From an uncultured Clostridia bacterium (GTDB lineage Bacteria; Bacillota; Clostridia; Christensenellales; UBA1242), in NCBI GenBank assembly GCA_944364445.1, contig CALVWC010000003.1, forward strand, positions 1 to 46,087: 46,087 nt of DNA. Direction: 5' to 3'. A program made the translations under genes and the position numbers. Shown here piece by piece: positions 11,139 through 46,087 of this stretch. The notes below the pieces were generated by a model. That model did not search any database, was not told the DNA's origin, and worked only from the letters and a program-made list of their open reading frames with translations. Every line of letters begins with the position of its first letter. Within the stretch, counting starts at the first letter, position 1.

Positions 11139-11230
11139 ATATCCATGAAGAGTGTGCGAGGGACAGCCCCTTTGACCACACAGCAACCTAGTTCTTGACC
11201 AAGGTGCTAATGGCTGAGTCGATGGGTAAG
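11139..11230 (+). ncRNA. SAM riboswitch, SAM-I/IV-type (no P4)
   Basis: P1 ccat/atgg, AAGAG, kink-turn P2 (tgtgcGAGGGAcagCCC..TGAccaca), P3 cagCAACC...GGTGCTAAtggctg; upstream of metK; sigmaA promoter GTGACA-17-TATAAT at 11106-11134. Confidence 0.88.
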
Positions 11231-11303: not shown

Positions 11304-12389
11304 ATGTTAAGAACAATTACAAGCGAAAGTGTGAACATTGGGCATCCAGACAAAACTTGCGACACCATTGCAGATGCCTTTTTGGATGAGGCGTTAAGGC
11401 AGGATAAGGACAGCCAAATGGCAGTGGAGTGTGCCATTAAAAATGATAAACTTTTCATTTATGGCGAGGCGACAACAAGGGCTAAGATTGATTATGACAA
11501 AATTGCAAAAGAAATTTTAAGAGATATTGGCTATCAAAACGATTTTAAGATAATTAAGGAGATAAGCAAGCAAAGCCCAGATATTGCACAGGCTGTGAAA
11601 AAGAAAAAATTGTGCGCTAATGACCAGGGGATGATGTTTGGATATGCCACAAATGAAACAAAAGAGTTTATGCCTCTGCCAATTTTGATTGCTCACAAAT
11701 TAATGAAAAAATACGACGACTTTAGGCGAATGGGCGATATGTTTTTTGCTGATGCAAAATGTCAGGTGAGTGTGGAGTATGACGATTGGAAGCCTATAAG
11801 AATTTCCACGGTGCTTATAAGCGTTTCTCACTCTGAAAAAATATCCAATGAAGATATTTGTAAGGAAATTTTGGAAAATGTTGTGCTTAATGTTTTGGCA
11901 GAATATGAAAGTTTAACGGATGACAATCTGAAAATCTTAATTAATCCAAGTGGCAGGTTTACCATTTGGGGAAGTTTCGGCGACAGCGGTTGCGTGGGCA
12001 GAAAAATTATTGTTGACACCTATGGCGGAGTTGGCCGAGTGGGTGGAGGTTGTTTCAGCTCCAAAAACGCCACAAAGGTGGATAGGTCAGGTGCATATTA
12101 CGCGCGATATGTTGTCAAAAATGTGGTGGCACACGGCTATGCGGATATTTGCGAAATTGAAGTGGCTTATGCGATTGGACTTGATGAGCCTGTGACTGTT
12201 AACATTGAAACCTTTGGAACAAACAAGGTAAAATTAGAGGAAATTGAAAATTATGTTAAAAAGAACTTTGATTTTTCGCTTTCCAACATCATTAAGGAAC
12301 TTGACCTGTTGAAACCAATCTATAAACAGACCGCTTGCTATGGGCATTTTGGCAGAGAGGAGTTTTCTTGGGAAAAAATTAAAAAATGA
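11304..12389 (+). CDS. metK: S-adenosylmethionine synthetase
   Basis: TSESVNIGHPDK.CD.IAD, DQGMMFGYA, GRKIIVDTYGG, KVDRSGAY, TACYGHFGR. Confidence 0.96.
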   Translation: MLRTITSESVNIGHPDKTCDTIADAFLDEALRQDKDSQMAVECAIKNDKLFIYGEATTRAKIDYDKIAKEILRDIGYQNDFKIIKEISKQSPDIAQAVKKKKLCANDQGMMFGYATNETKEFMPLPILIAHKLMKKYDDFRRMGDMFFADAKCQVSVEYDDWKPIRISTVLISVSHSEKISNEDICKEILENVVLNVLAEYESLTDDNLKILINPSGRFTIWGSFGDSGCVGRKIIVDTYGGVGRVGGGCFSSKNATKVDRSGAYYARYVVKNVVAHGYADICEIEVAYAIGLDEPVTVNIETFGTNKVKLEEIENYVKKNFDFSLSNIIKELDLLKPIYKQTACYGHFGREEFSWEKIKK

Positions 12390-35617: not shown

Positions 35618-35959
35618 GTCAGTCAGACAAATGGTCGCGTGTTATCGACTACCGATGACACGAGGAAAGTCCGAGCATCAAAAGAACAGGGTGCTAGTTA
35701 ACGGCTAGTGAAGGCGACTTTAAGGATAGTGCAACAGAAATAGACTGCCAAGTTTTCTTGGTGATGGTGGAAAGGTAGGGTAAGAGCCTACCGAAAGTTT
35801 GGTGACAAACTTTGCTCTGTAAACCCCACCCGATGCAAGGTTAAGTTTAGGCGACGGCGTTCTTTCCTGCCTAACAAAAATACCGCTTGATTTTGTTGGT
35901 GACAGCAAAACTAGATAGATGACCATTTGAAACAGAACTCGGCTTATAGTCTGGCTGAT
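35618..35959 (+). ncRNA. rnpB: RNase P RNA (type A)
   Basis: GAGGAAAGTCC, AGTGCAACAGAAA, GGTAAGAGCC, ACAGAACTCGGCTTA; P1 gtcagtcagac/gtctggctgat; promoter TTGATT-17-TATAAT at 35583-35611. Confidence 0.96.
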
Positions 35960-35964
35960 AATTT

Positions 35965-35987
35965 AAGATGGGAAACCATCTTTTTTT
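35965..35987 (+). terminator. rnpB terminator
   Basis: AAGATGG-gaaa-CCATCTT + T tract. Confidence 0.8.
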
Positions 35988-36021
35988 GTTTAAAAATATT
36001 TTGTTGGGCAAAAATCATCTT

Positions 36022-37245
36022 ATGAGAAAGGAAGATGTATATAATTTTAAAACCACCATATTAAATCGCGTTAGGTTTCATGCACCGATATGTTTTGACT
36101 CTGAGATTGACAGGACAATTCTTTTTAACAATGGTGTAAATTTAAATTATCCTATTTTTGTTTATAGAAATACACTTTCAAAAGAGGTTTTAAAAGCGTT
36201 TTATGAGGCAAGTTTAGAGGCTGACTTTAATTTGTTAATACCTTTAACTAATGTTCAAAGTAAGCAGGAAAAGTTTTTGAAAAAAATTAATAATTGTGTG
36301 CTTTTTGGTGATAACGCACCTCTTTCTTTTATAACCATGATAAATAAACTCAACATTAATTATCCAGCAAGTTGCAACTATGATTTAACATATAAGGAAA
36401 AATTTTTTAAAGTTAATAATGAAATTTTAAACCCTGTTTATAAAGAGTTTTCCTTGCAAAGAGAAGTGGTTGTGGATGGCGTTAAAGTGGAGTATAAGGA
36501 ATTTCTTTTGAATGGAAATAATATTTATGTCAAACTCAAAAATAACGAAAAAAGAGAGAAAAAATTAAAAATTTCTTTAAATTTTCCGTTAAAAAGGGGA
36601 TATTTTCTCTTTAAACGATTAAATCGTTGTGTTAAAATTGAAAATTTGCAAAACGGAGAATTGATGTATTTTTCCTTTATTTGTCCTTGTGCGAAAATGA
36701 GTTTTTCGGCGGTTGATGGTTTGGAAAATTCTTCTTACTCCACCATTTATTTGGAATTTAACTTGACCATTAAACCTAATGAGAAAAAAAGTTTATTCTT
36801 TTTGATGTCGAATAAAAAATTCCCTCTTAAGACAGATAAAGAATTTGATGAGTTGTTTGAGATTGCTTTAAATAAAAGCAAAGAGATTTTTGATTTAAAA
36901 GTGAAAACTAAAGATGCTAAATTTGACCAATTTTTTAACAACACTTTACCTAAAAAAATTTGGCTTAATTGGAGTAATTTTTGCGAAGATGAAAGTTTAT
37001 TAAAAAAGTATGAAACACTTAGGAGGTTGTTTATCAAAGGTAAGGATAAAATTTGCTTTGTGCCATTTAAAGAAATTGGGCTTAAAGAACTTGGAATATT
37101 TAATGGCGAGTATTATAAAAAAATTTTAATAAGTTTTGGCGATGAAAGGTATTTGCAAGTTGGAAAGACAAAATTTTTTAATATATCAAATATAAATAAA
37201 AAATCACTTTCAAAACGAGATGCGATTTTTCTTTCATTCGCGTGA
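36022..37245 (+). CDS. Hypothetical Lys/Phe-rich protein, possibly a degenerate GH94-like sandwich domain
   Basis: Long ORF; LKVKTKDAKFDQFFNNTL resembles the GH94 linker (VkTPD..fD...N.WL); no catalytic barrel apparent. Confidence 0.6.
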   Translation: MRKEDVYNFKTTILNRVRFHAPICFDSEIDRTILFNNGVNLNYPIFVYRNTLSKEVLKAFYEASLEADFNLLIPLTNVQSKQEKFLKKINNCVLFGDNAPLSFITMINKLNINYPASCNYDLTYKEKFFKVNNEILNPVYKEFSLQREVVVDGVKVEYKEFLLNGNNIYVKLKNNEKREKKLKISLNFPLKRGYFLFKRLNRCVKIENLQNGELMYFSFICPCAKMSFSAVDGLENSSYSTIYLEFNLTIKPNEKKSLFFLMSNKKFPLKTDKEFDELFEIALNKSKEIFDLKVKTKDAKFDQFFNNTLPKKIWLNWSNFCEDESLLKKYETLRRLFIKGKDKICFVPFKEIGLKELGIFNGEYYKKILISFGDERYLQVGKTKFFNISNINKKSLSKRDAIFLSFA

Positions 37246-37518
37246 AAGATACTGGAAATGATTATTCATATATTTAAAAAATAAAAAATGTTAATTTTTG
37301 CATGAAAAACGCTTTTTTATTTGAAAAAAATGCGTTTTTTCTTCATTTTTTATAATTTTTTGTTTTTGCTTCAATTTTGCTATTAAAATTTTTTAGAATT
37401 AAAAGTTGAAAAACTGCAAAATAAAATAACTTTTTATACCCTTTAAGACTTTAAAATATTTTAATTAATTTGAATAATTTATTGTGTTTTGATTTTTATT
37501 TATGATATAATATGCAAG

Positions 37519-38808
37519 ATGGAAAGTAGGCAAAGAATTCCGCTTGCAGAAAGAATGCGAGCAAAATCTCTTGACGAATTTGTTGGACAAGAGCATATCG
37601 TGGGCAAAAACAAGATGCTGACACGCGCAATCGCAACAGGTAATGTTGGGAGTATGATTTTTTATGGTCCACCCGGAACAGGCAAAACAACTCTTGCCAA
37701 CATCATTGCCAAAATGATGGATGCAAACATTGAGAAGTTAAATGCGGTTTCCAGCGGTGTTGCTGATGCTAAAGCCATCATTGAAAGAGCGCGTTCAAAT
37801 AAAGCGATGTTCAATAAGGATACTTATCTTCTTTTGGATGAGTGCCACAGATGGAATAAGGCACAAAGCGATTGTGTGTTGCAGGCGATTGAAGAGGGAA
37901 GTATATATTTCATTGGCTCGACCACAGAAAATCCTTATACCAGCATGACGCGTGCGATTGTTTCAAGATGTTCCATTTTTGAATTTAAAAAGATTAGTGA
38001 AAAAGATGTTGTCAAAGTTTTAAAGCGTGCTTTAAGCGATAAGGAAAATGGGCTTGGGCTTATTGATATTGATATGAGTGAAGAGGCAATTAAATATTTG
38101 GCTTTTGCCTCTAACGGCGATGTTAGAACGGCACTTAACGCGTTGGAACTTGCGGTTAATTCCACCAAAATGGGAAAGGACAAGCGTTTGCATATTTCAA
38201 AAGAGGATATTTCTGAATGCTTGAACAGACGACCTTTATCTATTGATGAAAGTGGCTATTATGACTACCTTTCCGCATTTTGCAAAAGTTTGAGAGGTTC
38301 TGACACGGAGGCTGCGCTATACTATAGTCAGCGTTTAATTCAAGCAGGAGTTGACCCATTGATTATTGCAAGGCGTATGATTGCGCACGCATCTGAAGAT
38401 ATTGGAATGGCGGACTCAAACGCACTTTTAATGGCGTGCTGTGCCATGTTTGCAGTGGAAAAAATTGGACCGCCTGAGTGTTATTTGAATTTGTCGCACG
38501 CAATAATCTATTTATGTGAGGCCGAAAAATCGAACAGTGTTTACATGGCGATGAGTATGGCAGAAGAGGATGCCAAAAACGCAAGAGAGGACCAAGTGCC
38601 AAACCATTTGAAAAATCATCCAAGCACTAATGATGATGGTCATGGAAAATATAAATATCCACATAACTACGGCGGGTATGTCGCTCAGCAATATCTGCCT
38701 GACAGTTTGAAAGATAGGGTTTATTATAAGCCAAGCGCAAACGGAAAAGAGAAAAATTTGATAAGAAAGAAATTTAGTAAAAATATTTCTAAAAAGGGAG
38801 AGAATTAA
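37519..38808 (+). CDS. rarA: Replication-associated recombination protein A (RarA/MgsA)
   Basis: PLAERMR...LDEFVGQEH, GPPGTGKTT, DECHRWNKAQ.D, STTENP, KSLRGSD, ASEDIG.AD, YKYPH. Confidence 0.95.
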   Translation: MESRQRIPLAERMRAKSLDEFVGQEHIVGKNKMLTRAIATGNVGSMIFYGPPGTGKTTLANIIAKMMDANIEKLNAVSSGVADAKAIIERARSNKAMFNKDTYLLLDECHRWNKAQSDCVLQAIEEGSIYFIGSTTENPYTSMTRAIVSRCSIFEFKKISEKDVVKVLKRALSDKENGLGLIDIDMSEEAIKYLAFASNGDVRTALNALELAVNSTKMGKDKRLHISKEDISECLNRRPLSIDESGYYDYLSAFCKSLRGSDTEAALYYSQRLIQAGVDPLIIARRMIAHASEDIGMADSNALLMACCAMFAVEKIGPPECYLNLSHAIIYLCEAEKSNSVYMAMSMAEEDAKNAREDQVPNHLKNHPSTNDDGHGKYKYPHNYGGYVAQQYLPDSLKDRVYYKPSANGKEKNLIRKKFSKNISKKGEN

Positions 38809-39768
38809 ATGTTTGGACGAAGAGCAGACGGAAAGAGAGTTAAAGATTTGATGATTATTGAAAAGGCTTTGCCTTACTTCATGCCGATGAGAATTGATGG
38901 CGTGAATTTGTATAAGCAACAGGTGAAATGCAAAACCATTGACGATTTCATCTTAAAAGAAAGGCAGGAAACTGGTGTGCATTTCACTTACACCGAAATT
39001 TTGATTGCAGCGTGCGTTAGGATGCTTTATGAAAGACCTAAGGCAAACAGGTTTATTATGAATTGTCAAATTTACCAAAGAAATGAAATCACAGTTTCTA
39101 TGAGTATTAAACCAAAACTTATTGATGATTGCGATGAGGTGACACTTAAGTTTCACTTCACAGGAAGAGAAAATATTTATGAAGTTAAAAAGATTGTGGA
39201 TGATGAAATAAAAAGAAATGTGCAGTCGGCGAATGAAGCGCAAGAAACCACAAAAGCAGCGAAATTTCTTGGAAAACTTCCTTATTGGATGTTTAAGGTT
39301 GCCATGAAGTTTATAAGGTTTGCTGATAGGTATGGTCTTCTTCCAAAATCGCTTATTGATGTCAGCCCATTCCACACAAGCATCTTTATAACCGATCTGA
39401 AAAGTATTAAACTTGATAAAGTTTATCATCATTTATATAACTTTGGAACGACCACAATTTTCGGAGCGCTTGGAAAGGTAAAGTATGTGCCAGTCAGCGA
39501 TAGAAATGGCGATATTCACACTGAAAAAGTGGTGGATATTGGTTTGACTTTGGATGAAAGAGTGGCTGATGGGTTGTATTATGCAAATTGCGTTAAACTT
39601 TTGCTTAAATATCTTGAAAACCCAGAATGCTTGAAGCAAAGTTTGAGTGAAGCAGAAGTTATTGATAAAGCGAAGAAAAAGCAAGAGAAAAAAGAAAAAC
39701 GCTTAGCCAAGAAAAAGGCGAAGCAAGAAAAGAAAGATAAAATTGTGAAAATAAATGAAGTTGCTTAA
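38809..39768 (+). CDS. Stand-alone 2-oxoacid dehydrogenase E2-like / CAT-fold acyltransferase domain protein
   Basis: MFGRRADG N-terminus, P..NRF, YHHLYNFGT, TLDERVADG.Y; no lipoyl domain. Confidence 0.75.
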   Translation: MFGRRADGKRVKDLMIIEKALPYFMPMRIDGVNLYKQQVKCKTIDDFILKERQETGVHFTYTEILIAACVRMLYERPKANRFIMNCQIYQRNEITVSMSIKPKLIDDCDEVTLKFHFTGRENIYEVKKIVDDEIKRNVQSANEAQETTKAAKFLGKLPYWMFKVAMKFIRFADRYGLLPKSLIDVSPFHTSIFITDLKSIKLDKVYHHLYNFGTTTIFGALGKVKYVPVSDRNGDIHTEKVVDIGLTLDERVADGLYYANCVKLLLKYLENPECLKQSLSEAEVIDKAKKKQEKKEKRLAKKKAKQEKKDKIVKINEVA

Positions 39769-39797: not shown

Positions 39798-39895
39798 ATT
39801 TAAAGAGATTTAGAATAACAAATTACAAGTTTAAATTTTAGAAAATTTGTAAATCAATAAAAAAATGTTTTTATTTCGCGAATATAAGTAAATAT

Positions 39896-40030
39896 TGTCG
39901 AAAAAGTTGTTAATGAAGTCATTTTGACAGCAATTTGACGGCAGAAATAAATCTAATTGTAAAATATTGTAAAATAGCAGAAAATTAGTTGGCATAAAAT
40001 TTGACTATGTCAATTTTATTTCATTATAAT
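39896..40030 (+). promoter_or_regulatory. Spo0A-box cluster, palindromic operator and sigmaA promoter of the RinA/ArpU-like gene
   Basis: TGTCGAA 39896-39902 (perfect); TTTGACA 39923-39929 and TTTGACG 39934-39940 (reverse near-matches); inverted repeat ATAAAATTTGAC-tat-GTCAATTTTAT over TTGACT(40001)-18-TATAAT(40025). Confidence 0.55.
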
Positions 40031-40057
40031 TTCTCATGTTTTGCAAAGGAGTATATT

Positions 40058-40585
40058 ATGAAAGAAAATTGTTGGACAAAAACATTGCTTGGAACTTACA
40101 GGTATTTGGAAAATATTGCGGGTGCCATTGACAAGATGGTTATGAAAACTGCACTTAATTCTTATCACTTCTGTCGCGGGGAAAGCAATAATGTTTATAA
40201 TATTTCTAATAAAATTATTGACCTTGCGGATAGAAAAATCACCTTGATTAACCTTAAAGTGATCATAGATAAAGTGCTTATGGAAATTCCTGAAAGCGAT
40301 GCAAAACTTTTGATTGAAAGGTATGTTGAAAATGTCAAATGTCGCGTTATGGCAGAAAATTCAAAAGTAAGCATTAGAACACTTTTTAGAAAATTAACTT
40401 GTGCGGAAAACAATTTCACAAAGAAACTTGTTGCCAATGGCTATACAGATGCGAGGTTAAGCGAACTTCTTAAAAAAGAAAAGTGGATTTTAAATTTTTA
40501 TGACCAAGTGGCAAATAAGGGTGAAGAAAATTTAAATATGCAAAAAGACCTTGCTTATCAAACTAAAATTTTTGGTCTTGTTTAA
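40058..40585 (+). CDS. RinA/ArpU-like (sigma region-4-type HTH) transcriptional regulator
   Basis: N-terminal helical region then IDKVL.EI...DAKLLIERY....K...MAE...VSIRTLFRKL..A...F, the typical C-terminal pattern of phage late activators; AAGGAG SD. Confidence 0.6.
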   Translation: MKENCWTKTLLGTYRYLENIAGAIDKMVMKTALNSYHFCRGESNNVYNISNKIIDLADRKITLINLKVIIDKVLMEIPESDAKLLIERYVENVKCRVMAENSKVSIRTLFRKLTCAENNFTKKLVANGYTDARLSELLKKEKWILNFYDQVANKGEENLNMQKDLAYQTKIFGLV

Positions 40586-41346
40586 TTTAAATCGCTGTCA
40601 TCAAACTCAAAATAGTCACCATGCTGGATTTTTCTTATTGCTTTTTTCTCTGTTTTCCTTTTTTGTTTTGTTGGTTTTTTCACAAGGAAAAAGAGGATGA
40701 AAATGCTGGGAATGGTTATTGCTATTATTAAAAGCACTTTTGTGCCAGTGGATAGGTTGGAAAATGAGGTTGAAGAGCCTTCTAGTGCCTCCTCGCTTAC
40801 TTCTTCAAAAGTTTCGTTGTTGATTGTTGTTTCGGGAGGGGTGGATACCACTTCAGAATAGATATAGCCTCTGACTATCTCACCATTAAGGTTGGTGCTG
40901 GCGTAATACCATGTGTTTCCGCGACTTGAAACTTCTTCACCTTCCATTTCGCCATAGAAATTGAAAACTGTGTCCTCTTCAACATCGGCAAGGCTTGTGC
41001 TTGACGAGTTTGGATTTTCATATAGCGAATATGCCACATAGTTTGTGAAAGTGGAGTTTAAGTAAGGTGAGTTTGGAGTGCCTCGCATTAAAGTGACATC
41101 TTCTTTTTTAACAAAGCCGATTAAATCTTTGTAGGTCACTTGATAAAATTCTCCCTCCACCGATATCACACTGACGAAATAGGAATAAGGCAGTTTGAAA
41201 AGTCCGCTTGCCGAACTTAAAGAGGAGTAAAAATACGCATCGCTATCTTTTACTTTTCCATATATATTATCTTCCGCACTTGCAAAATTTATCTCTACAA
41301 AGGGAAGAAAAAGAAGGGTGAATAAAATTAAAAATATTTTTTTCAT
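40582..41346 (-). CDS. Secreted, membrane-anchored protein with two SH3b-like domains
   Basis: Signal peptide (..FASA/E), V.VISVEGEFYQVTY..LIGFVKKEDV and TWYY.....GEIVRGYIYSE, C-terminal TM and basic tail. Confidence 0.7.
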   Translation of the reverse strand: MKKIFLILFTLLFLPFVEINFASAEDNIYGKVKDSDAYFYSSLSSASGLFKLPYSYFVSVISVEGEFYQVTYKDLIGFVKKEDVTLMRGTPNSPYLNSTFTNYVAYSLYENPNSSSTSLADVEEDTVFNFYGEMEGEEVSSRGNTWYYASTNLNGEIVRGYIYSEVVSTPPETTINNETFEEVSEEALEGSSTSFSNLSTGTKVLLIIAITIPSIFILFFLVKKPTKQKRKTEKKAIRKIQHGDYFEFDDSDLN

Positions 41347-41438
41347 AGTTTAATTTTAAATCTCATTAAAGGAATTTACGGAAGAGAAATATGTCTATAT
41401 TTTTATTTTAGTAGATTTTTTTGTAAAAAGGAGGAAGG

Positions 41439-42854
41439 TTGGATAATTTAGTTTTAAATATCTTAAAAATTGAAGAAGAAATCAAAAATCGCAAAAAATT
41501 GCCATATTTTCGCTATAATAAAGGAAAAAAAGTGCATAAAAAGCAAATTTTGTTTCATAAATGTCAAAAACGAAACCGCTGGGTGTTTGGAGGAAACCGC
41601 TCTGGTAAAACCGAATGCGGAGCAATGGAAGTGGTGTTTTTGGCTCTTGGCACTCATCCATATAAAAAGAATAAGCAAACGGAGGGTTGGGTGGTTTCGC
41701 TTTCAAGGCAAGTTCAACGCGACGTTGCACAAAGAAAAATTTTGGAATATCTTCCGCCATATTCCATTGAAAAAGTTGTTATGTTGTCTGGCGGGCAAGG
41801 AAGTGCAGAAAGCGGAATTATTGATTTTATTTTGGTGAAGAACGAACTTGGCTCAATAAGCAAAATTGGCTTTAAATCGTGCGACCAAGGACGAGAGAAA
41901 TTTCAGGGTGCAAGTTTAGATTATGTTTGGTTCGACGAAGAACCGCCTTATGACATATACCTTGAATGTCGTATGCGAGTTTTAGATAGGTGTGGGGAAA
42001 TTTTTGGCACGATGACGCCGTTAAAAGGGCTTACTTGGGTTTATAACACAATTTATTTAAATGAGCATGATGACGAGGAAGTCTGGTATGAGCAAATAGA
42101 GTGGGCGGATAACCCATTTTTATCGCAAGACGAAGTTGACAGCATGACAAAGAGTATGTCAAGTGAAGAACTTGAAGCAAGGCGATATGGGAAATTTATT
42201 GCAACAAGCGGGCTTGTCTATTCCGAGTTTGACGAAAATGTGCATGTGATTGAACCCTTTGACATTCCAAGTGAGTGGCAGGATAATATCTCCATTGACC
42301 CCGGACTTCACAATCCACTTTCCGCTCATTTTTACGCGGTCGATTTTGATGATAATGTTTATGTGGTGGCTGAACATTTTGAGGCGGAAAAGGATGTTTC
42401 CTATCATGCAAACAAAATTAAAGAAATTGCAGACAGGCTAAATTGGAAAAGAACCTCCTCTGGCAAACTTTCTGCGCTCATTGACCCTGCTGCCAGTCAG
42501 CGAACGCTTTCCAGTGAAAAAACTGTGGTCGAGCTTTTTAATGAAAATGGAATTTTGGTTAACACAAAAGTGAATAAGGATATGTTTTCAGGTATTGCAA
42601 CCGTTAAATCTTACTTAAAATCGGCAGACGGCAGGGTTAAACTTTATATTTTTAAAAATTGCGTCAATTTGATTCGAGAATTTAAGTCGTATTGGTGGGG
42701 TGATGGGGATAATCCAGTGAAGAAGGACGACCACGCTCTTGATGAACTTCGATATTATCTTATGACAAAACCAAGAAACACTTATAAACCGAAAAAGTCA
42801 GAAATACAAAAGGATAAGGAGCGATTAGCAAGAAAATTGAGATTTTTAAAGTAA
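41439..42854 (+). CDS. Phage terminase large subunit (TerL), orphan
   Basis: Q-motif HKKQ..FH, Walker A GGNRSGKT, FQG..LDYVWFDEE (Walker B), coupling motif TMTP, nuclease IDPG and DDHALDELRY; AAGGAGG SD before TTG. Confidence 0.92.
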   Translation: MDNLVLNILKIEEEIKNRKKLPYFRYNKGKKVHKKQILFHKCQKRNRWVFGGNRSGKTECGAMEVVFLALGTHPYKKNKQTEGWVVSLSRQVQRDVAQRKILEYLPPYSIEKVVMLSGGQGSAESGIIDFILVKNELGSISKIGFKSCDQGREKFQGASLDYVWFDEEPPYDIYLECRMRVLDRCGEIFGTMTPLKGLTWVYNTIYLNEHDDEEVWYEQIEWADNPFLSQDEVDSMTKSMSSEELEARRYGKFIATSGLVYSEFDENVHVIEPFDIPSEWQDNISIDPGLHNPLSAHFYAVDFDDNVYVVAEHFEAEKDVSYHANKIKEIADRLNWKRTSSGKLSALIDPAASQRTLSSEKTVVELFNENGILVNTKVNKDMFSGIATVKSYLKSADGRVKLYIFKNCVNLIREFKSYWWGDGDNPVKKDDHALDELRYYLMTKPRNTYKPKKSEIQKDKERLARKLRFLK

Positions 42855-42934
42855 TATTTTATTTTTTTAAATAATTTATAAATCTATTTGGAAAAATAAA
42901 GGTAAGTGTGGTAAAACTATATAGAGAGGGAAAA

Positions 42935-45391
42935 ATGAAAAAATCTATATCCATTTTTATCAGTTTACTTCTTTGCCTTCCACTTCTTTTATGTGGTGCT
43001 TTTTTTGTGTTTAACATTAACTTTGCTAAAGCAGAGGAAGTAGAGGGGAGAGTTATTTATTTAACTAGTGACAATTTTTTACAAGTAATAAATGAATATA
43101 TTAGAGTACCTGAGACTAATCCGATCTCTACTTACATTTTGCAAGAAGATATTGATGTCTCTAATGCGAAAAAAGATTTATATGATGATATAGAAGGTTT
43201 GTTTGGAACGGCAAGTCTCCCTTTTGCTGGAACATTTGATGGTAATGGTCACACAATTTCCAATTTGCATGTGAATTTGACGGGTGACTCTTATGCAAAT
43301 TCTTCCACCATATATGCAGGGCTTTTTGGGTATACAGATGGTGCAACAATCAAAAACTTACATATTTCAGGCACATACAATGTGGAAGTGCTTGAGTCAG
43401 ACGAACTTGTGATAGGCGGGCTTGTTGGACAGGCTAATAACACCACAATCGAAAATTGCTACATAACTTCTTCCATGTTTGTTGATGTTATTAAAGGATT
43501 TAATGAGGATAATGAGGCGGTTGCTGGTAATTTTAATATGTTGACATATGGTGGATTGGTTGGAGAAATGAAATATTCTACTTTAAAAAACTCAATTGTG
43601 CGTCCAACAAGTGCAGCTAATTTTCAGCTTTCGAATGTCTATCGAACAACTTCCGTTATTGGCGGTGTTGTTGGTAATCTTAATTCTTCAAGCGTTCGTT
43701 TTGTGCTTGGCGCTCAAAGTTTGAATGTCAATATTGATGAAAATTATAATGGAAGCACATATATTGGCGGAATTGCTGGATATATAAGCCAAGGCGAAGC
43801 ACAAATCATCAACTCAATTTATGACGGCGTTATAACGGTGGAGGACGGAAGCGGAAATGCTTCGATCGGTTATGTGGGAGGTTATATTTCCTCGCCAGCA
43901 CCAAGAGCCTATAACTTAAGTTATGATTATTATTATCGACCTCAAAACAGCACCTATACCGCGTTTGGCGATTATGGAAACTATGCGTTAAGAGATAATG
44001 AAGCATATATTATTTCTCAAAGCGTAAGAGCAAATTCCTCCAACTATTTTGAAAGCAAAGAATGGAATGACCTTTATGGCGATTGGGACTTTACAGACGA
44101 TTTCATAATCAGGAACAACGTTATTTATCTTCAAGCATTTGAAGACAATTTCACTCTTCGCACTGAAGTTGACGAGTTTATTTCCATAACAAAAGAAATT
44201 GAAAGTGGTCTTAGATATGGCGACACGGCTTCTTTTAGTTTTAAATTTTCTAACATCGAGGCTGGAGTTTCTGATGAAACATTTTCAAATTATTATGAAC
44301 TGACAAACATCACGCTTGACAAGCAAGACGGCAGTCAAACGGTGGTGACCTTTTTTAAGCAGGAAAATGATAATGATGAAACACATCTCGAGCCAAGAGT
44401 TAAAAGCGAATTTCCAAACATAACCGCAGAATATAACGAGGAAACTGAAGAATATACCATAACAATAAACGGCATAACTATGAATTATGCTGGCACCTAC
44501 TCGGTGAATATTGAACCAGTTCGTTTCACAGGCAATTTTGAGTATCGCCTGTTTGATGAAGAGGGGCAACTTGATAATGAAAGTGATGAAATGAAAACAG
44601 AATGTTATGTGTATTACACCAATGGCGAAAATAGGAATGACCCAACCATTCAAATCAAAGATATGGTTTATGGAAATCGTTATTCCATTTCCACATCCGC
44701 TCGAACAAACTCTCTATATTCATTCACTGGTTGGTGTATTGTGCAATATGATGACGAAGGAAATGAGATTTCCTCCGAGGAAATTACAGGGGCAACAAAC
44801 AGAGATTTATCTTTCACCTTTGGTCAAGGCGTTTTCACAGATAATTTCACAGTTTATGCAAGATATGACTATAATGCTTGCAATTTTAACTTCATTTTGG
44901 GCGACGGAATTGAGCAGATTGTGCTTTCAAATCGCAGTGAGCCTATCACCACCACCGACACAACTGTTCCACTTTTAAAACAATTAACAAGCATAACCAT
45001 GGATGTTTATGTTAAAGCAAATGCTAGTTTTGATGTTCAAAGATTTATGGATAGTGTGAACACCTTTGATTTGGAAAATCCAGAGGCGGGTTTTTGCGTA
45101 CTTGTGGATAATTATCCAATTACTTTGGAAGACGGCACCACACAATATCAATTTACTTTAAACCTGAACAATTTAAGCACCGATAATGAAGATAGTTTTA
45201 CATTAACTTTCAACACCGAGGAGGTTCACATAACAAATTGGACGCTTGTTTGGACTCTCGTCGGCTCAATCGGTGGAGGACTTCTTCTTATCGGCGGAAT
45301 AATTTTAATTGTTTTCTTGGTTAAACGCCGTGGCGGAAGAGGTGGCGGTGGCTCACTCAAAAAATCCTCCTATAAAAATATGTATTATTAA
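42935..45391 (+). CDS. Large surface protein with GLUG-type/beta-solenoid repeats and a C-terminal TM anchor
   Basis: Signal peptide, Y.L..DID, FAGTFDGNGHTISNL, GLFGY..GATIKNL, repeated IGGLVG/IGGIAG, C-terminal TM then KRRGGRGGGG. Confidence 0.8.
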   Translation: MKKSISIFISLLLCLPLLLCGAFFVFNINFAKAEEVEGRVIYLTSDNFLQVINEYIRVPETNPISTYILQEDIDVSNAKKDLYDDIEGLFGTASLPFAGTFDGNGHTISNLHVNLTGDSYANSSTIYAGLFGYTDGATIKNLHISGTYNVEVLESDELVIGGLVGQANNTTIENCYITSSMFVDVIKGFNEDNEAVAGNFNMLTYGGLVGEMKYSTLKNSIVRPTSAANFQLSNVYRTTSVIGGVVGNLNSSSVRFVLGAQSLNVNIDENYNGSTYIGGIAGYISQGEAQIINSIYDGVITVEDGSGNASIGYVGGYISSPAPRAYNLSYDYYYRPQNSTYTAFGDYGNYALRDNEAYIISQSVRANSSNYFESKEWNDLYGDWDFTDDFIIRNNVIYLQAFEDNFTLRTEVDEFISITKEIESGLRYGDTASFSFKFSNIEAGVSDETFSNYYELTNITLDKQDGSQTVVTFFKQENDNDETHLEPRVKSEFPNITAEYNEETEEYTITINGITMNYAGTYSVNIEPVRFTGNFEYRLFDEEGQLDNESDEMKTECYVYYTNGENRNDPTIQIKDMVYGNRYSISTSARTNSLYSFTGWCIVQYDDEGNEISSEEITGATNRDLSFTFGQGVFTDNFTVYARYDYNACNFNFILGDGIEQIVLSNRSEPITTTDTTVPLLKQLTSITMDVYVKANASFDVQRFMDSVNTFDLENPEAGFCVLVDNYPITLEDGTTQYQFTLNLNNLSTDNEDSFTLTFNTEEVHITNWTLVWTLVGSIGGGLLLIGGIILIVFLVKRRGGRGGGGSLKKSSYKNMYY

Positions 45392-45734: not shown

Positions 45735-46087
45735 TAACGTTAGAGTTTGATCCTGGCTCAGGACGAACGCTGGCGGCGTGCTTAAAACATGCAAGTCGAA
45801 CGAATAAATTGTTAGCACAAAGATGTCTAGAGAAAATTCCATTACACACATAAAACAATTTTTAATTTTGCGAGGGGAAGGGCTTAGCCCGGCGAGCACA
45901 AATTAAAAATCACACACGTGGAAGAGGATTGGGAAGAGAAACCGACGAAGTAGCGGTTAGGATATGAAAATATCCGTGTCCGCCTAAAGCGAAGTTGGTG
46001 TCTGTCCCAGATAGGCGTTTTTGTGCTGACAATTTGTTAGTGGCGGACGGGTGAGTAACGCGTGAACAATCTGGCTAACACAGGGGG
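45735..46087 (+). rRNA. rrs: 16S rRNA gene, 5' part (runs off the window)
   Basis: AGAGTTTGATCCTGGCTCAG at 45742, GACGAACGCTGGCGGCGTG, CATGCAAGTCGAACG, then AGTGGCGGACGGGTGAGTAACGCGTG. Confidence 0.97.
45803..46038 (+). other. Intervening sequence / large expansion in 16S helix 6 (V1)
   Basis: 236 nt between GTCGAACG and AGTGGCGGACGG, closed by a ~26-bp stem AATAAATTGTTAGCACAAAGATGTCTA / TAGGCGTTTTTGTGCTGACAATTTGTT. Confidence 0.9.

What the first reader, a model, noticed from the sequence alone, without database searches (positions are those of the whole stretch)
39896..42854. Orphan intact terminase plus RinA/ArpU-like activator under Spo0A boxes: candidate domesticated, sporulation-linked DNA-packaging (GTA-like) module
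Seen: a full-length TerL with all ATPase and nuclease motifs intact and a strong SD sits among host genes (rarA, acyltransferase, surface protein, rrn). No TerS, portal, capsid, integrase or att repeat is visible in 46 kb, and there is no obvious compositional break or decayed neighbour. A gene with a RinA/ArpU-like HTH lies about 0.85 kb upstream, separated only by an SH3b membrane protein that is divergent from terL. Established: RinA/ArpU proteins activate late/packaging operons beginning at the terminase in Firmicutes phages, and gene transfer agents are domesticated phage modules whose genes can be dispersed and host-regulated. Inference: these genes are part of a vertically inherited packaging system scattered over the chromosome and wired to the sporulation/stationary-phase regulon, making GTA-like particles or using TerL as a DNA motor or nuclease in development.
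Basis: partly seen in the sequence, partly recalled or inferred. Interest (0 to 1): 0.85.

Follow-up and report, generated by a model that had tools for sequence, protein, structure and literature searches.

The report
Split gene-transfer-agent-like phage module
The lone-looking phage DNA-packaging gene belongs to an old, inherited set of phage head, packaging and lysis genes that host genes have cut in two, which makes it a strong candidate gene transfer agent of a group of gut bacteria.

Summary
terL (41439-42854) is real, intact and under strong purifying selection. It is not orphan. The rest of a podovirus-like module lies on two other contigs of the same ~1 Mb chicken-gut genome: truncated TerS, portal, scaffold, SU10-like capsid protein, three structural genes and two holins. 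Synteny with relatives suggests this second locus sits about 13-14 kb downstream, beyond the rRNA operon that ends the window.

In other Christensenellales the same genes form one ~12 kb block with no integrase or replication genes. In this genus terL was found in 34 of 36 genomes, and capsid and portal in 36 of 36, always at fixed host positions. TerL changes as slowly as RarA and more slowly than PolA. The nearest true phages fall outside the clade.

The upstream regulator is a sigma-70 region-4/DUF1492 (Ltr-type) late activator. It does not match the RinA or ArpU models.

The TerS homologue lacks the N-terminal DNA-binding part. This fits unspecific, GTA-like packaging.

The Spo0A link is not supported: there is one exact box, at chance level.

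Closest precedent: FpGTA of Faecalibacterium (2026). That paper also saw GTA-like packaging in Christensenellaceae without naming genes.

Verdict: new member of a known kind; function inferred, not shown.

The parts
39896..39902 (+). Single exact TGTCGAA ('0A box') upstream of the regulator gene. It lies inside a T-rich TTGTCG motif.
   Evidence: 7 matches in the window against 5.41 expected, so not above chance. The matrix hit at 39884 ranks 41st of 135 in the genome.
40001..40030 (+). Sigma-70-like promoter (TTGACT-18-TATAAT, 11 of 12) 28 nt before the regulator's ATG.
   Evidence: The total number of promoter-like sites in the region is not above shuffles (24 against 20.6), so this is a pattern match only.
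40058..40585 (+). Regulator, 175 aa from the ATG at 40058 (the ORF opens at TTG 40001). It has a sigma-70 region-4-type HTH and is an Ltr-like putative late activator.
   Evidence: Family of 72 sequences (A1): Sigma70_r4_2 in 49 of 72, DUF1492 in 26 of 72, Phage_antitermQ in 24 of 72. The profile hits SigF region 4 at E 1.4e-4. AF2 pLDDT is 88.5 and the best fold matches are sigma region 4, not significant. The gene is conserved upstream of terL in the genus and in other families.
40582..41346 (-). SH3b protein with a signal/anchor and a C-terminal membrane helix, divergent from terL. Role unknown. It is kept at this position throughout the module's range.
   Evidence: PF08239 at 30.7 bits. 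Homologues sit in the same place and orientation in genus loci and in most contiguous modules.
41380..41401 (+). Conserved T-rich TGTC box about 47 nt before the terL start. A second TTTTTGTA box follows about 30 nt downstream.
   Evidence: 26 of 37 unique genus upstream regions carry TGTC 35-62 nt before the start, in the context AGAtTTTTGTC. The matrix hit scores 15.0 bits and ranks 18th of 135. No sigma-70-like promoter was found on this strand in 41347-41438.
41439..42854 (+). terL, large terminase (T4-type ATPase plus RNaseH-like nuclease), intact.
   Evidence: Orthologues at 65-81% identity in 34 of 36 genus genomes. dN 0.11-0.20, the same as rarA.
42908..45391 (+). Surface-anchored 827-aa protein with a weak GLUG motif. 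It is a host gene lying where the ancestral operon ran on from terL into the TerS-like gene.
   Evidence: It follows terL in the genus. In L141 and L145 it is the only insert matched by our queries between terL and the TerS-like gene. It evolves fast, dN 0.57-0.78.
45735..46087 (+). Start of 16S rRNA at the contig end. This is probably the reason the rest of the module is not in the window.
   Evidence: Synteny of contig C39 with five relatives places 203-358-ABC-TerS-like beyond it.

Best explanation
terL is the packaging motor of a domesticated podovirus-derived head, packaging and lysis module. The module is a candidate gene transfer agent (viriform) inherited vertically in Christensenellales.

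Shown:
- The ancestral form is one block of about 12 kb: Ltr-type regulator, divergent SH3b membrane protein, terL, truncated terS, a small protein, P22/SU10-like portal, scaffold, SU10-like capsid protein, three structural proteins, a variable gene and two holins.
- The block has no integrase, replication or lysogeny genes.
- In this genus, host genes were inserted between terL and the truncated terS. They are a surface protein, here also an rRNA operon, and an ABC transporter. The module now sits in two loci, and both are kept.

Inferred mechanism:
- The sigma-region-4-type activator switches on the promoterless terL locus and, in trans, the second locus.
- Procapsids assemble from portal, scaffold and capsid protein.
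- TerL works with a TerS that has lost its N-terminal DNA-recognition domain. It therefore fills heads with chromosomal DNA without sequence preference.
- The two holins release the particles by lysing a fraction of the cells.

Not shown: particle formation, the content of the particles, delivery to other cells, and the signal that triggers production.
For: The rest of the module is in the same genome.
- Contigs C39 and C7 overlap exactly by 77 nt and give an open 638-codon portal frame.
- Their genes are annotated: P22_portal 1.2e-21, capsid phrog_14242 3.3e-47, BhlA holin 5e-17, holin phrog_297 1.4e-11.

Distribution and position.
- The contiguous form occurs in other families, flanked by host genes.
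- Presence among 60 relatives: terL orthologue in 34 of 36 genus genomes and 9 of 24 other families. Capsid and portal are in 36 of 36 and in the same 9 of 24.
- The second locus has the same ABC-transporter flank in 20 of 20 genus genomes examined.
- The terL-to-capsid distance is 10-148 kb in the genus and about 3 kb elsewhere.

Selection and descent.
- dN of TerL is 0.11-0.20, against 0.12-0.17 for RarA and 0.35-0.78 for the neighbouring genes. Omega is about 0.05 where dS is defined.
- 28% of TerL columns are at least 98% invariant, and these include all catalytic motifs.
- Identity to the window's genome tracks PolA: rho 0.81 for TerL and 0.94 for portal over 33 genomes.
- Portal, p502 and host ABC trees share their major clades.
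- In the TerL tree, 117 module rows form one clade (support 100) and the genus forms one clade of 46 (support 98). The true phages L068 and L069, which carry integrase, replication genes and a full TerS, fall outside.
- The nearest TerL among 50,697 phage records is 31% identical, and the nearest capsid protein 26%.

The TerS-like protein.
- Its family aligns to residues 57-122 of the canonical 150-aa TerS of the basal variant (hhalign 97.5%, E 7e-12).
- The best fold matches among 48,161 chains are the SF6 small-terminase oligomerisation core, at a weak Z of 4.4 and 4.0.

The regulator family.

Literature.
- A podovirus-like GTA with a DBD-less TerS and a second lysis locus is known in Faecalibacterium.
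- GTA-like packaging of 4-7 kb fragments was seen for Christensenellaceae MAGs with no genes assigned (PMC12946183: passages and section 9; supplement file 3).
Against: - No particle, packaged DNA or transfer has been observed for this organism.
- Capsid capacity is unknown, so 'too small to package itself' is untested.
- In this genus no endolysin was recognised. The variable gene (a DUF7934-type protein in some) that lies between p502 and the holins in contiguous modules, and that could be a receptor-binding protein, is missing.
- One genus genome, G016 (89% complete), has rarA-acylT joined directly to p100-polA and no terL was found, although it keeps portal and capsid.
- The capsid gene is discordant or fast-evolving in the sister clade.
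- Evidence for the TerS assignment other than hhalign is weak.
- It was not tested whether the MAGs in the cited paper carry this module.
- The shared upstream T-rich boxes are of low information.
- Expression evidence is only short contigs, 90-97% alike, in two metatranscriptome runs of one study, and these may hold DNA.
Confidence: 0.6

Rival explanations
1. The module makes particles for a purpose other than gene transfer. Examples are killing of related strains (as PBSX does), programmed lysis that releases DNA or nutrients, or a role tied to stationary phase or sporulation under Spo0A control.
For: - Holins are conserved at the end of the module.
- No receptor-binding gene was recognised in this genus.
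- The genome has Spo0A, two extra Spo0A_C-only ORFs, SpoIVA and SpoIIID.
- A TGTC-containing motif is conserved upstream of terL in 26 of 37 regions, and the log-odds consensus of the training sites (chosen for holding TGTC) reads TTTTTGTCGAA.
- The cited paper leaves open whether FpGTA delivers DNA (PMC12946183, discussion passage).
Against: - An intact, highly conserved TerL with both ATPase and nuclease motifs, plus a portal, argues that DNA is packaged.
- The exact Spo0A box is at chance level.
- The motif matrix is not specific. The terL site ranks 18th, and the genes beside the top intergenic hits are mostly housekeeping: RNase Y, MurE, HrcA and the like.
Confidence: 0.2
2. It is a resident mobile element that only looks fixed: a very small temperate phage or a capsid-forming satellite (cf-PICI-like) relying on a helper.
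For: - IMG/VR lists 38 fragments that carry it as viral (40 loci, less the two true phages and one 28% match).
- One genome, G045, holds two copies.
- TerL of the same clade occurs in true phages L068 and L069 at 53-56% identity.
- The size, about 12 kb, and the head-only content resemble capsid-forming satellites (recalled, not tested).
Against: - No integrase, excisionase or replication gene is in or beside the block.
- No exact flanking direct repeats were found in two contiguous copies.
- Host flanks are identical across 20 of 20 genus genomes.
- The block is broken by host genes, yet both halves stay intact.
- Module trees are congruent with host genes.
- Most IMG/VR hits are short fragments of 4-15 kb with the same host-type architecture.
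Confidence: 0.1
3. It is a decaying prophage remnant with no present function. terL survives by chance or serves a moonlighting role as a lone motor or nuclease.
For: - terL stands apart from the head genes in this genus.
- terL was not found in G016.
- The capsid gene of G056 is in two pieces, and that of G048 has one TGA.
Against: - All module genes are open and full-length in 20 of 20 genus loci examined.
- dN of terL equals that of rarA.
- Catalytic motifs are invariant in 121 orthologues.
- The module is kept in genomes of only 0.8-1.3 Mb.
Confidence: 0.05

Closest known systems
FpGTA of Faecalibacterium (Nat Commun 2026, PMC12946183; read: passages, section 9, supplement file 3)
   Same: - Gut Clostridia host.
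- A cluster of about 10-12 kb with a TerS lacking a DNA-binding domain, TerL, portal, scaffold, capsid protein and short-tail-type structural genes.
- No replication genes.
- Lysis genes included, genes spread over two loci, and near-ubiquitous in its genus.
   Different: - Sequence homology to FpGTA could not be tested, because its proteins could not be fetched.
- In a sample of 300 Clostridia genomes, only one genus outside the order (g105) had terL (E 1e-30 or better) or the capsid (E 1e-5 or better) in all its sampled genomes. Whether Faecalibacterium was in that sample is unknown.
- Here TerS lies after terL, an Ltr-type activator and an SH3b protein precede terL, and the split falls inside the head operon.
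- Particles and packaging are shown for FpGTA, not here.
RcGTA-type gene transfer agents of Alphaproteobacteria (recalled, and as summarised in PMC12946183)
   Same: Domesticated head and packaging genes, vertical inheritance, slow evolution, dispersed loci, a TerS without a DNA-binding domain, and release by lysis.
   Different: RcGTA has a siphovirus-like design with a tail and is controlled by CtrA and quorum sensing. There is no sequence relation. Here the design is podovirus-like and a phage-type Ltr activator is retained.
Ltr superfamily of late activators: RinA, ArpU, LtrA (Sigma70_r4), LtrB (DUF1492), LtrC (PMC3753634; passages read)
   Same: A small protein with a sigma region-4-like HTH, encoded just upstream of the terminase genes. 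Family matches are Sigma70_r4_2 in 49 of 72 and DUF1492 in 26 of 72. A related regulator (phrog_36/248) sits upstream of terS in the true phages L068 and L069.
   Different: There is no match to the RinA or ArpU models. A divergent SH3b gene lies between it and terL. The operon starts with terL, not terS. Activation has not been tested.
PBSX of Bacillus subtilis (recalled, and as cited in PMC12946183)
   Same: A Firmicute defective phage-like element that packages short random host DNA and is released by lysis.
   Different: PBSX is a contiguous, myovirus-like, SOS-induced element that kills rather than transfers. The TerL match to the PBSX family model is far below cut-off (29.7 against 105 bits).
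Podoviruses with P22/SU10-type portal and capsid, for example EBPR podovirus 1
   Same: Gene order of terL, small gene, portal, scaffold, coat. TerL identity is 28-31%.
   Different: Those are full genomes of 35-45 kb with replication genes and a TerS in front of terL.

Membership tests
Large terminase, T4-type (Terminase_6N / Terminase_6C) | Both domain models above the Pfam gathering score | tested here: met
   68.4 bits (cut-off 22) and 24.5 bits (cut-off 22.6). phrog_2 at 2.2e-32.
Large terminase, T4-type (Terminase_6N / Terminase_6C) | Walker A, Walker B and coupling motif, plus acidic nuclease residues, present and conserved | tested here: met
   GGNRSGKT, WFDEEP, GTMTP, IDPG, DPAA and DDH..DE.RY are at least 98% invariant in 121 unique orthologues. 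They are invariant columns in A3. The motif names are recalled.
Gene transfer agent (viriform) | Phage-derived head and packaging genes in the chromosome, without replication, integration or lysogeny genes | tested here: met
   By contrast, the true phages L068 and L069 have them.
Gene transfer agent (viriform) | Vertical inheritance with purifying selection, congruent with the host | tested here: met
   dS is saturated, so omega is rough.
Gene transfer agent (viriform) | Genes dispersed over more than one locus | tested here: met
   Two loci in this genus, 10-148 kb apart. The module is contiguous in most other Christensenellales.
Gene transfer agent (viriform) | Particles package random host DNA in pieces shorter than the gene set | not testable with these tools
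   Only indirect evidence: Christensenellaceae MAGs in PMC12946183 show GTA-type reads with peaks at 4.07 and 7.07 kb (supplement file 3). Whether those MAGs hold this module was not checked.
Gene transfer agent (viriform) | Control by host regulators | tested here: inconclusive
   A phage-type activator is retained. The Spo0A box is at chance level. The conserved TGTC motif is not specific.
RinA / ArpU families | Match to the family models (NCBIfam carries the TIGRFAM models for RinA and ArpU; that it does is recalled) | tested here: not met
   0 NCBIfam families at E 0.01 or better for the window's protein.
Ltr superfamily (LtrA Sigma70_r4 / LtrB DUF1492) | Sigma-70 region-4-like HTH or DUF1492, encoded just upstream of the terminase genes | tested here: met
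   49 of 72 and 26 of 72 family members. PDB profile hit to SigF region 4 at 1.4e-4. Position. The window's own protein alone is below threshold.
Ltr superfamily (LtrA Sigma70_r4 / LtrB DUF1492) | Activates the late promoter | not testable with these tools
No sigma-70-like promoter lies before terL, which is compatible with the idea but weak.
Small terminase (TerS) | Homology to a recognised TerS | tested here: met
   hhalign of A2 against the 150-aa TerS of L015 (phrog_309 at 5.3e-32): probability 97.5%, E 7.3e-12. The window genome's own protein hits phrog_309 at 2.9e-5.
Small terminase (TerS) | N-terminal DNA-binding HTH domain | tested here: not met
   The alignment starts at TerS residue 57. 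The protein has 108 aa, and the model has no HTH before the beta-hairpin. The fold match covers SF6 TerS residues 62-120 only (weak).
FpGTA (Faecalibacterium) | Sequence homology of capsid, portal and TerL | not testable with these tools
   The accessions are given in the paper, but no tool fetches them.
Integrated prophage or capsid-forming satellite | Integrase, replication genes and att repeats | tested here: not met
   None. There are no exact flanking repeats in L107 or L087.

The most novel reading that the evidence does not exclude
This module is the unnamed gene set behind the GTA-type packaging of whole Christensenellaceae genomes seen in gut virus-like particles. It would be an order-wide viriform that arose once from a temperate podovirus, when TerS lost its DNA-recognition domain. 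It is kept even in spore-forming genomes of about 1 Mb, as their main route of recombination. A retained Ltr activator would switch it on at entry into stationary phase or sporulation, reading, together with a Spo0A-type factor, the conserved TTTTTGTC boxes before terL and the TerS-like gene.
Probability: 0.2. Interest if true: 0.8.

Novelty: new member of a known kind. Interest (0 to 1): 0.64.

Why it matters
Very few gene transfer agents have a known gene set, and only two Gram-positive examples, PBSX and FpGTA, are named in the literature read here.

This element gives a concrete, order-wide candidate for Christensenellales, a heritable and health-associated gut group (that description is recalled, not checked here). 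GTA-type DNA packaging has just been seen in this group without any genes being assigned.

The module shows domestication step by step:
- The basal form has a full TerS in front of terL.
- The main form has a truncated TerS behind terL.
- In this genus, host genes, here including an rRNA operon, split the operon.

Keeping about 10 kb of phage-derived genes in genomes of about 1 Mb implies a real benefit to the host.

The finding can be tested directly with particle DNA sequencing and proteomics.

Tried and rejected
- Complex prediction for TerL with the TerS-like protein never ran. Binding is therefore untested.
- Spo0A regulon test. A matrix from 23 relatives' terL-upstream sites was scanned over the own genome. 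It gave 135 hits above 11 bits, and 21 of the top 60 are intergenic. The genes beside the top intergenic hits are mostly housekeeping: 20 ORFs were scanned, and only SpoIIID and a Spo0A_C-only ORF relate to sporulation. This gives no usable regulon signal.
- TerS-like family. The Pfam scan (77 members) and the PDB sequence profile gave nothing meaningful. Foldseek gave nothing at E 0.001 or better. hhalign against the L068 TerS gave only 27.8% probability.
- Regulator fold. Foldseek gave nothing at E 0.001 or better.
- The protein-atlas search on the capsid protein only confirmed SU10-type capsid clusters.
- The IQ-TREE-type run of treekit did not finish. FastTree was used instead.
- Sequencing runs. 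All are kept as contigs. Two runs labelled RNA (X17, X18) are probably DNA. Two metatranscriptome runs (X19, X20, one study) hold pieces of terL, of the start of the GLUG gene and, in X20 only, of the SH3b gene, at 90-97% likeness. Parts without cover mean nothing.
- dS is saturated in all pairs, so omega is only indicative.
- Homology to FpGTA could not be tested.
- Outside the order, genus g105 has terL without module neighbours and a capsid locus elsewhere. This was not followed to the end.


Full report
**1. What is at the coordinates**

The window is contig C3 of a 967,392-base, 53-contig genome that is 86.85% complete.

| Coordinates | Strand | Gene | Evidence |
|---|---|---|---|
| 37489-38808 | + | rarA/mgsA | MgsA_C 3.4e-56 |
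| 38809-39768 | + | acyltransferase-like | 2-oxoacid_dh 2.1e-8 |
| 40058-40585 | + | small HTH protein, ATG start | ORF opens at TTG 40001; sigma-70-like promoter TTGACT-18-TATAAT at 40001-40030 |
| 40582-41346 | - | SH3b membrane protein | SH3_3 30.7 bits |
| 41439-42854 | + | terL, 471 aa | Terminase_6N 8.8e-19, Terminase_6C 2.9e-5, both above cut-off; phrog_2 2.2e-32 |
| 42908-45391 | + | 827-aa anchored surface protein | GLUG match below cut-off |
| 45735-46087 | + | start of 16S rRNA, at the contig end | |

GC is flat at 0.31-0.39 over 36-46 kb. The genome is tiny but encodes Spo0A, two further Spo0A_C-only ORFs, SpoIVA and SpoIIID. Sequencing runs that hold the stretch are mostly from chicken gut.

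**2. terL is not orphan**

terL orthologues were found in relatives as follows:

| Group | terL result |
|---|---|
| Genus, 36 genomes | orthologue in 34 (65-81% identity, no internal stops) |
| Other families of the order, 24 | orthologue (56-65% identity, E below 1e-160) in 9 |
| Other families, remainder | only weak 25-31% matches in 11; nothing in 4 |

In those nine families terL heads a compact block. In order, the block holds:
- a regulator (phrog_248, 7.7e-8);
- a divergent gene of about 257 aa;
- terL;
- a 95-aa protein (phrog_309, TerS, 1.9e-6);
- a 73-aa protein;
- a portal (P22_portal 5.3e-21);
- a scaffold;
- the capsid protein (phrog_14242, 9.7e-54; SU10_MCP);
- three further structural proteins;
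- a DUF7934 protein.

The block is flanked by host genes such as an M20 peptidase, DAP dehydrogenase and GroES.

tblastn of 34 proteins of three such blocks against the window's own genome hit C3 only at the regulator and terL. Everything else hit contigs C39 and C7. C39 (reverse complement) and C7 overlap exactly by 77 nt and give an open 638-codon portal frame.

The second locus reads, in order:
- host ABC transporter, divergent;
- TerS-like protein, 108 aa;
- a 74-aa protein;
- portal;
- scaffold, 219 aa;
- capsid protein, 408 aa;
- p106, p193 and p502;
- BhlA holin;
- a second holin;
- then host p100, polA and ruvX.

No integrase or replication gene is present.

**3. Inheritance**

- Capsid and portal are in 36 of 36 genus genomes, and in exactly the same 9 of 24 other families that have the terL orthologue.
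- In 11 genus loci the order regulator, SH3b (minus strand), terL, GLUG is kept where the stretch reaches far enough. All four genes were matched in 8 of 11, and the other three loci end early.
- In 20 of 20 genus genomes examined, the second locus has the same gene order and the same ABC-transporter flank.
- terL and the capsid gene lie 10-148 kb apart in the genus, against about 3 kb elsewhere.

Intermediate forms exist:
- In L141 and L145 the GLUG gene is the only insert our queries matched between terL and the TerS-like gene.
- In G003 and G036, GLUG, two further genes and the ABC transporter separate them by about 6.5 kb.
- The own contig C39 carries the same genes in the same order. The window therefore probably continues through the rRNA operon into C39, a gap of roughly 13-14 kb. 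This is an inference from synteny.

Selection:

| Gene | dN against the window |
|---|---|
| TerL | 0.11-0.20 |
| RarA | 0.12-0.17 |
| regulator and SH3b | 0.35-0.57 |
| GLUG | 0.57-0.78 (one pair failed at 2.17) |

dS is saturated. Where it is defined, omega is about 0.05 for terL.

The alignment used 127 complete TerL ORFs from the 173 loci then held. Partial hits and ORFs running off a locus were dropped. The 121 unique sequences have 28% of columns at least 98% invariant, including every catalytic motif.

Identity to the window's genome follows PolA (33 genomes with full-length matches in all four searches; partial or missing rows dropped; related genomes are not independent):

| Protein | rho, all 33 genomes | rho, genus only (26) |
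|---|---|---|
| TerL | 0.81 | 0.63 |
| Portal | 0.94 | 0.90 |
| Capsid | 0.15 | -0.21 |

TerL is more conserved than PolA: mean identity 70% against 59% in the genus, and 61% against 44% in other families. FastTree trees of portal, p502 and the flanking host ABC ATPase share their major clades.

The two genus genomes without terL:
- In G013 the contig ends just after the acyltransferase gene, so this is an assembly gap.
- In G016 (89% complete), rarA and the acyltransferase gene are joined directly to p100 and polA. The block is not at that site and terL was not found. p100 is therefore a host gene, not part of the module.

**4. Relation to phages**

- Among 50,697 phage records the best TerL match is 31% identical (podoviruses of Rhizobium, EBPR podovirus 1, Xfas53, a Pelagibacter phage). 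The best capsid match is 26%.
- IMG/VR holds 40 loci. Most are 4-15 kb fragments with the host-type architecture.
- Two of them, L068 and L069 (TerL 53-56% identical), are true phages. They carry a replication initiator, integrase, RusA, DnaB, a methyltransferase, a phrog_36/248 regulator, a full-length TerS in front of terL, and other capsid families.
- The TerL tree has 124 rows and was rooted by midpoint, which placed EBPR podovirus 1 and a Megaira phage on one side. All module sequences except those of G039 and G045 form one clade of 117 rows (support 100). The two phages fall outside it (support 98). The genus forms one clade of 46 rows (support 98).
- No exact att-like repeats flank two contiguous copies.
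The best 80 are all uncultured gut Clostridia MAGs, some named Christensenella, Christensenellaceae, Catabacter or Candidatus Scatosoma.

**5. The small terminase**

- The basal variant in G039 has a canonical 150-aa TerS in front of terL (phrog_309, 5.3e-32; weak HTH match in residues 3-46). It has no small gene after terL.
- The profile of the TerS-like family has 77 rows. Of 94 sequences found, 9 were dropped for length and 8 after a coordinate slip. It aligns to residues 57-122 of that TerS with 97.5% probability and E 7.3e-12.
- The AF2 model (pLDDT 86.5) is a helix, a long beta-hairpin and further helices, with no HTH.
- Its two best matches among 48,161 chains are the oligomerisation core of the SF6 small terminase, residues 62-120, at a weak Z of 4.4 and 4.0.
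- In the main clade, therefore, TerS has lost its N-terminal DNA-recognition part and moved behind terL.

**6. The regulator**

- Of 72 family members, 49 match Sigma70_r4_2 (best 3e-10), 26 DUF1492, 24 Phage_antitermQ and 23 Sigma70_ECF.
- The profile hits region 4 of SigF, SigL and SigW.
- The model (pLDDT 88.5) is all-helical. Its best fold matches are region 4 of sigma factors, not significant.
- Sigma70_r4 (LtrA) and DUF1492 (LtrB) are two families of the Ltr superfamily of late activators, which also holds RinA and ArpU (PMC3753634, passages).
- The RinA and ArpU models themselves do not match.

**7. Cis elements and Spo0A**

- The exact box TGTCGAA occurs once near the module, at 39896. 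The window total is at chance level.
- A real conserved element exists before terL. In 26 of 37 unique genus upstream regions, TGTC lies 35-62 nt before the start, in the context AGAtTTTTGTC. A second TTTTTGTA box lies about 30 nt downstream.
- The TerS-like gene has similar TTTTG boxes before it.
- A matrix trained on relatives only ranks the terL site 18th and the regulator site 41st of 135 genome hits. The genes beside the top intergenic hits are mostly housekeeping.
- Which factor reads these boxes is open.

**8. Expression**

Only contigs were available. Two metatranscriptome runs of one study hold short pieces, 90-97% alike, of terL, of the start of the GLUG gene and, in one run, of the SH3b gene. 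DNA carry-over cannot be excluded.

**9. Comparison with what is known**

- PMC12946183 (passages, section 9 and supplement file 3 read) describes FpGTA of Faecalibacterium. It has a 10.5 kb operon with a TerS lacking a DNA-binding domain, TerL, portal, scaffold and capsid protein. A second locus holds lysis genes. Heads are about 40 nm and carry 8.4-8.9 kb DNA.
- The same paper reports GTA-type packaging for Christensenellaceae MAGs (HGM11616 with peaks at 4.07 and 7.07 kb; QANA01) without naming genes.
- A 2026 preprint proposes GTA clusters in Coprocola (10.64898/2026.07.08.737213, passages).
- Four full-text searches found no description of this Christensenellales module.
- Homology to FpGTA could not be tested.

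**10. Verdict**

terL belongs to a domesticated, vertically inherited, split podovirus-like module that fits the genomic definition of a gene transfer agent. Packaging of host DNA is inferred, at a confidence of about 0.6. The Spo0A or sporulation link is unsupported but not excluded.

Noticed in passing
G000 contigs: L030 (C4:44476-44784), L031 (C20:8669-8977), L032/L184 (C15:15562-15966), L033 (C5:8861-9571), L191 (C6:23148-23432): A genome of about 1 Mb (87% complete) carries Spo0A, SpoIVA and SpoIIID. It also has two short ORFs (152 and 134-138 aa) that are little more than a Spo0A_C DNA-binding domain. This may be a minimal spore-former with extra stand-alone Spo0A-type DNA binders.
   Followed up: partly
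L155-L158 (G036, G008, G003, G034), capsid gene, e.g. L157:12418-13575: In the clade closest to the window's pair, portal, p106, p193 and p502 are the most similar, as expected. The capsid protein is the least similar (45-49%, against 51-60% in more distant genus members) and sits on a long branch (0.68). This points to fast evolution or replacement of the capsid gene alone.
   Followed up: partly
L200, L202 (terL) and L209, L210 (capsid locus) of genus g105, in another order of Clostridia: All 6 sampled genomes of a genus outside Christensenellales have a terL of this clade (54-56%) and a capsid homologue (43-45%). The two genes lie on different contigs in all six. The capsid locus examined in two of them has scaffold, capsid and a p106-like gene but no portal beside them. 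This would be a second, perhaps more dispersed, version of the system.
   Followed up: partly
L195 (G016:C6:44847-49115): In one genus genome, rarA and the acyltransferase gene are joined directly to p100 and polA. terL was not found, although portal and capsid are kept elsewhere. This could be a natural terL-less variant ('cheater') or an assembly loss.
   Followed up: partly
L016:8321-10162 (minus strand) and L017 (G045, 2.4 Mb complete genome): One genome holds two copies of the module. In one copy terL has an N-terminal extension (614 aa) and the portal has 707 aa.
   Followed up: no
L179 (G000:C17:11232-13280) and L176 (G000:C9:23912-26581): The genome encodes ComEC (Competence 4.5e-49), a possible uptake route for particle-borne DNA. 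It also encodes an 889-aa TraG/VirD4-like P-loop protein, which hints at a conjugative element.
   Followed up: no
L087:18080-19880, L107:18008-19511, L101:17862-19283, L034:11975-12529: In contiguous modules, the gene or genes between p502 and the holins differ in size and family from genome to genome (185-474 aa; DUF7934 in some). That is the pattern expected of receptor-binding proteins. The window's genus has no gene there.
   Followed up: no
window 35968-37245: A 425-aa ORF directly after the RNase P RNA (35619-35962) has no Pfam or NCBIfam match and the lowest GC of the region (0.27).
   Followed up: no
window 11140-11228: A SAM riboswitch (56.3 bits) lies before the ORF at 11304-12389.
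   Followed up: no
window 41380-41430; L026:790-870 (minus strand): Both module loci carry paired T-rich boxes (aTTTTTGTC/TTTTTGTA before terL; aTTTTGTGAAT and TTTTGGCA before the TerS-like gene). The second terL box lies only 10-20 nt before the ribosome-binding site, which is odd for a promoter element.
   Followed up: partly
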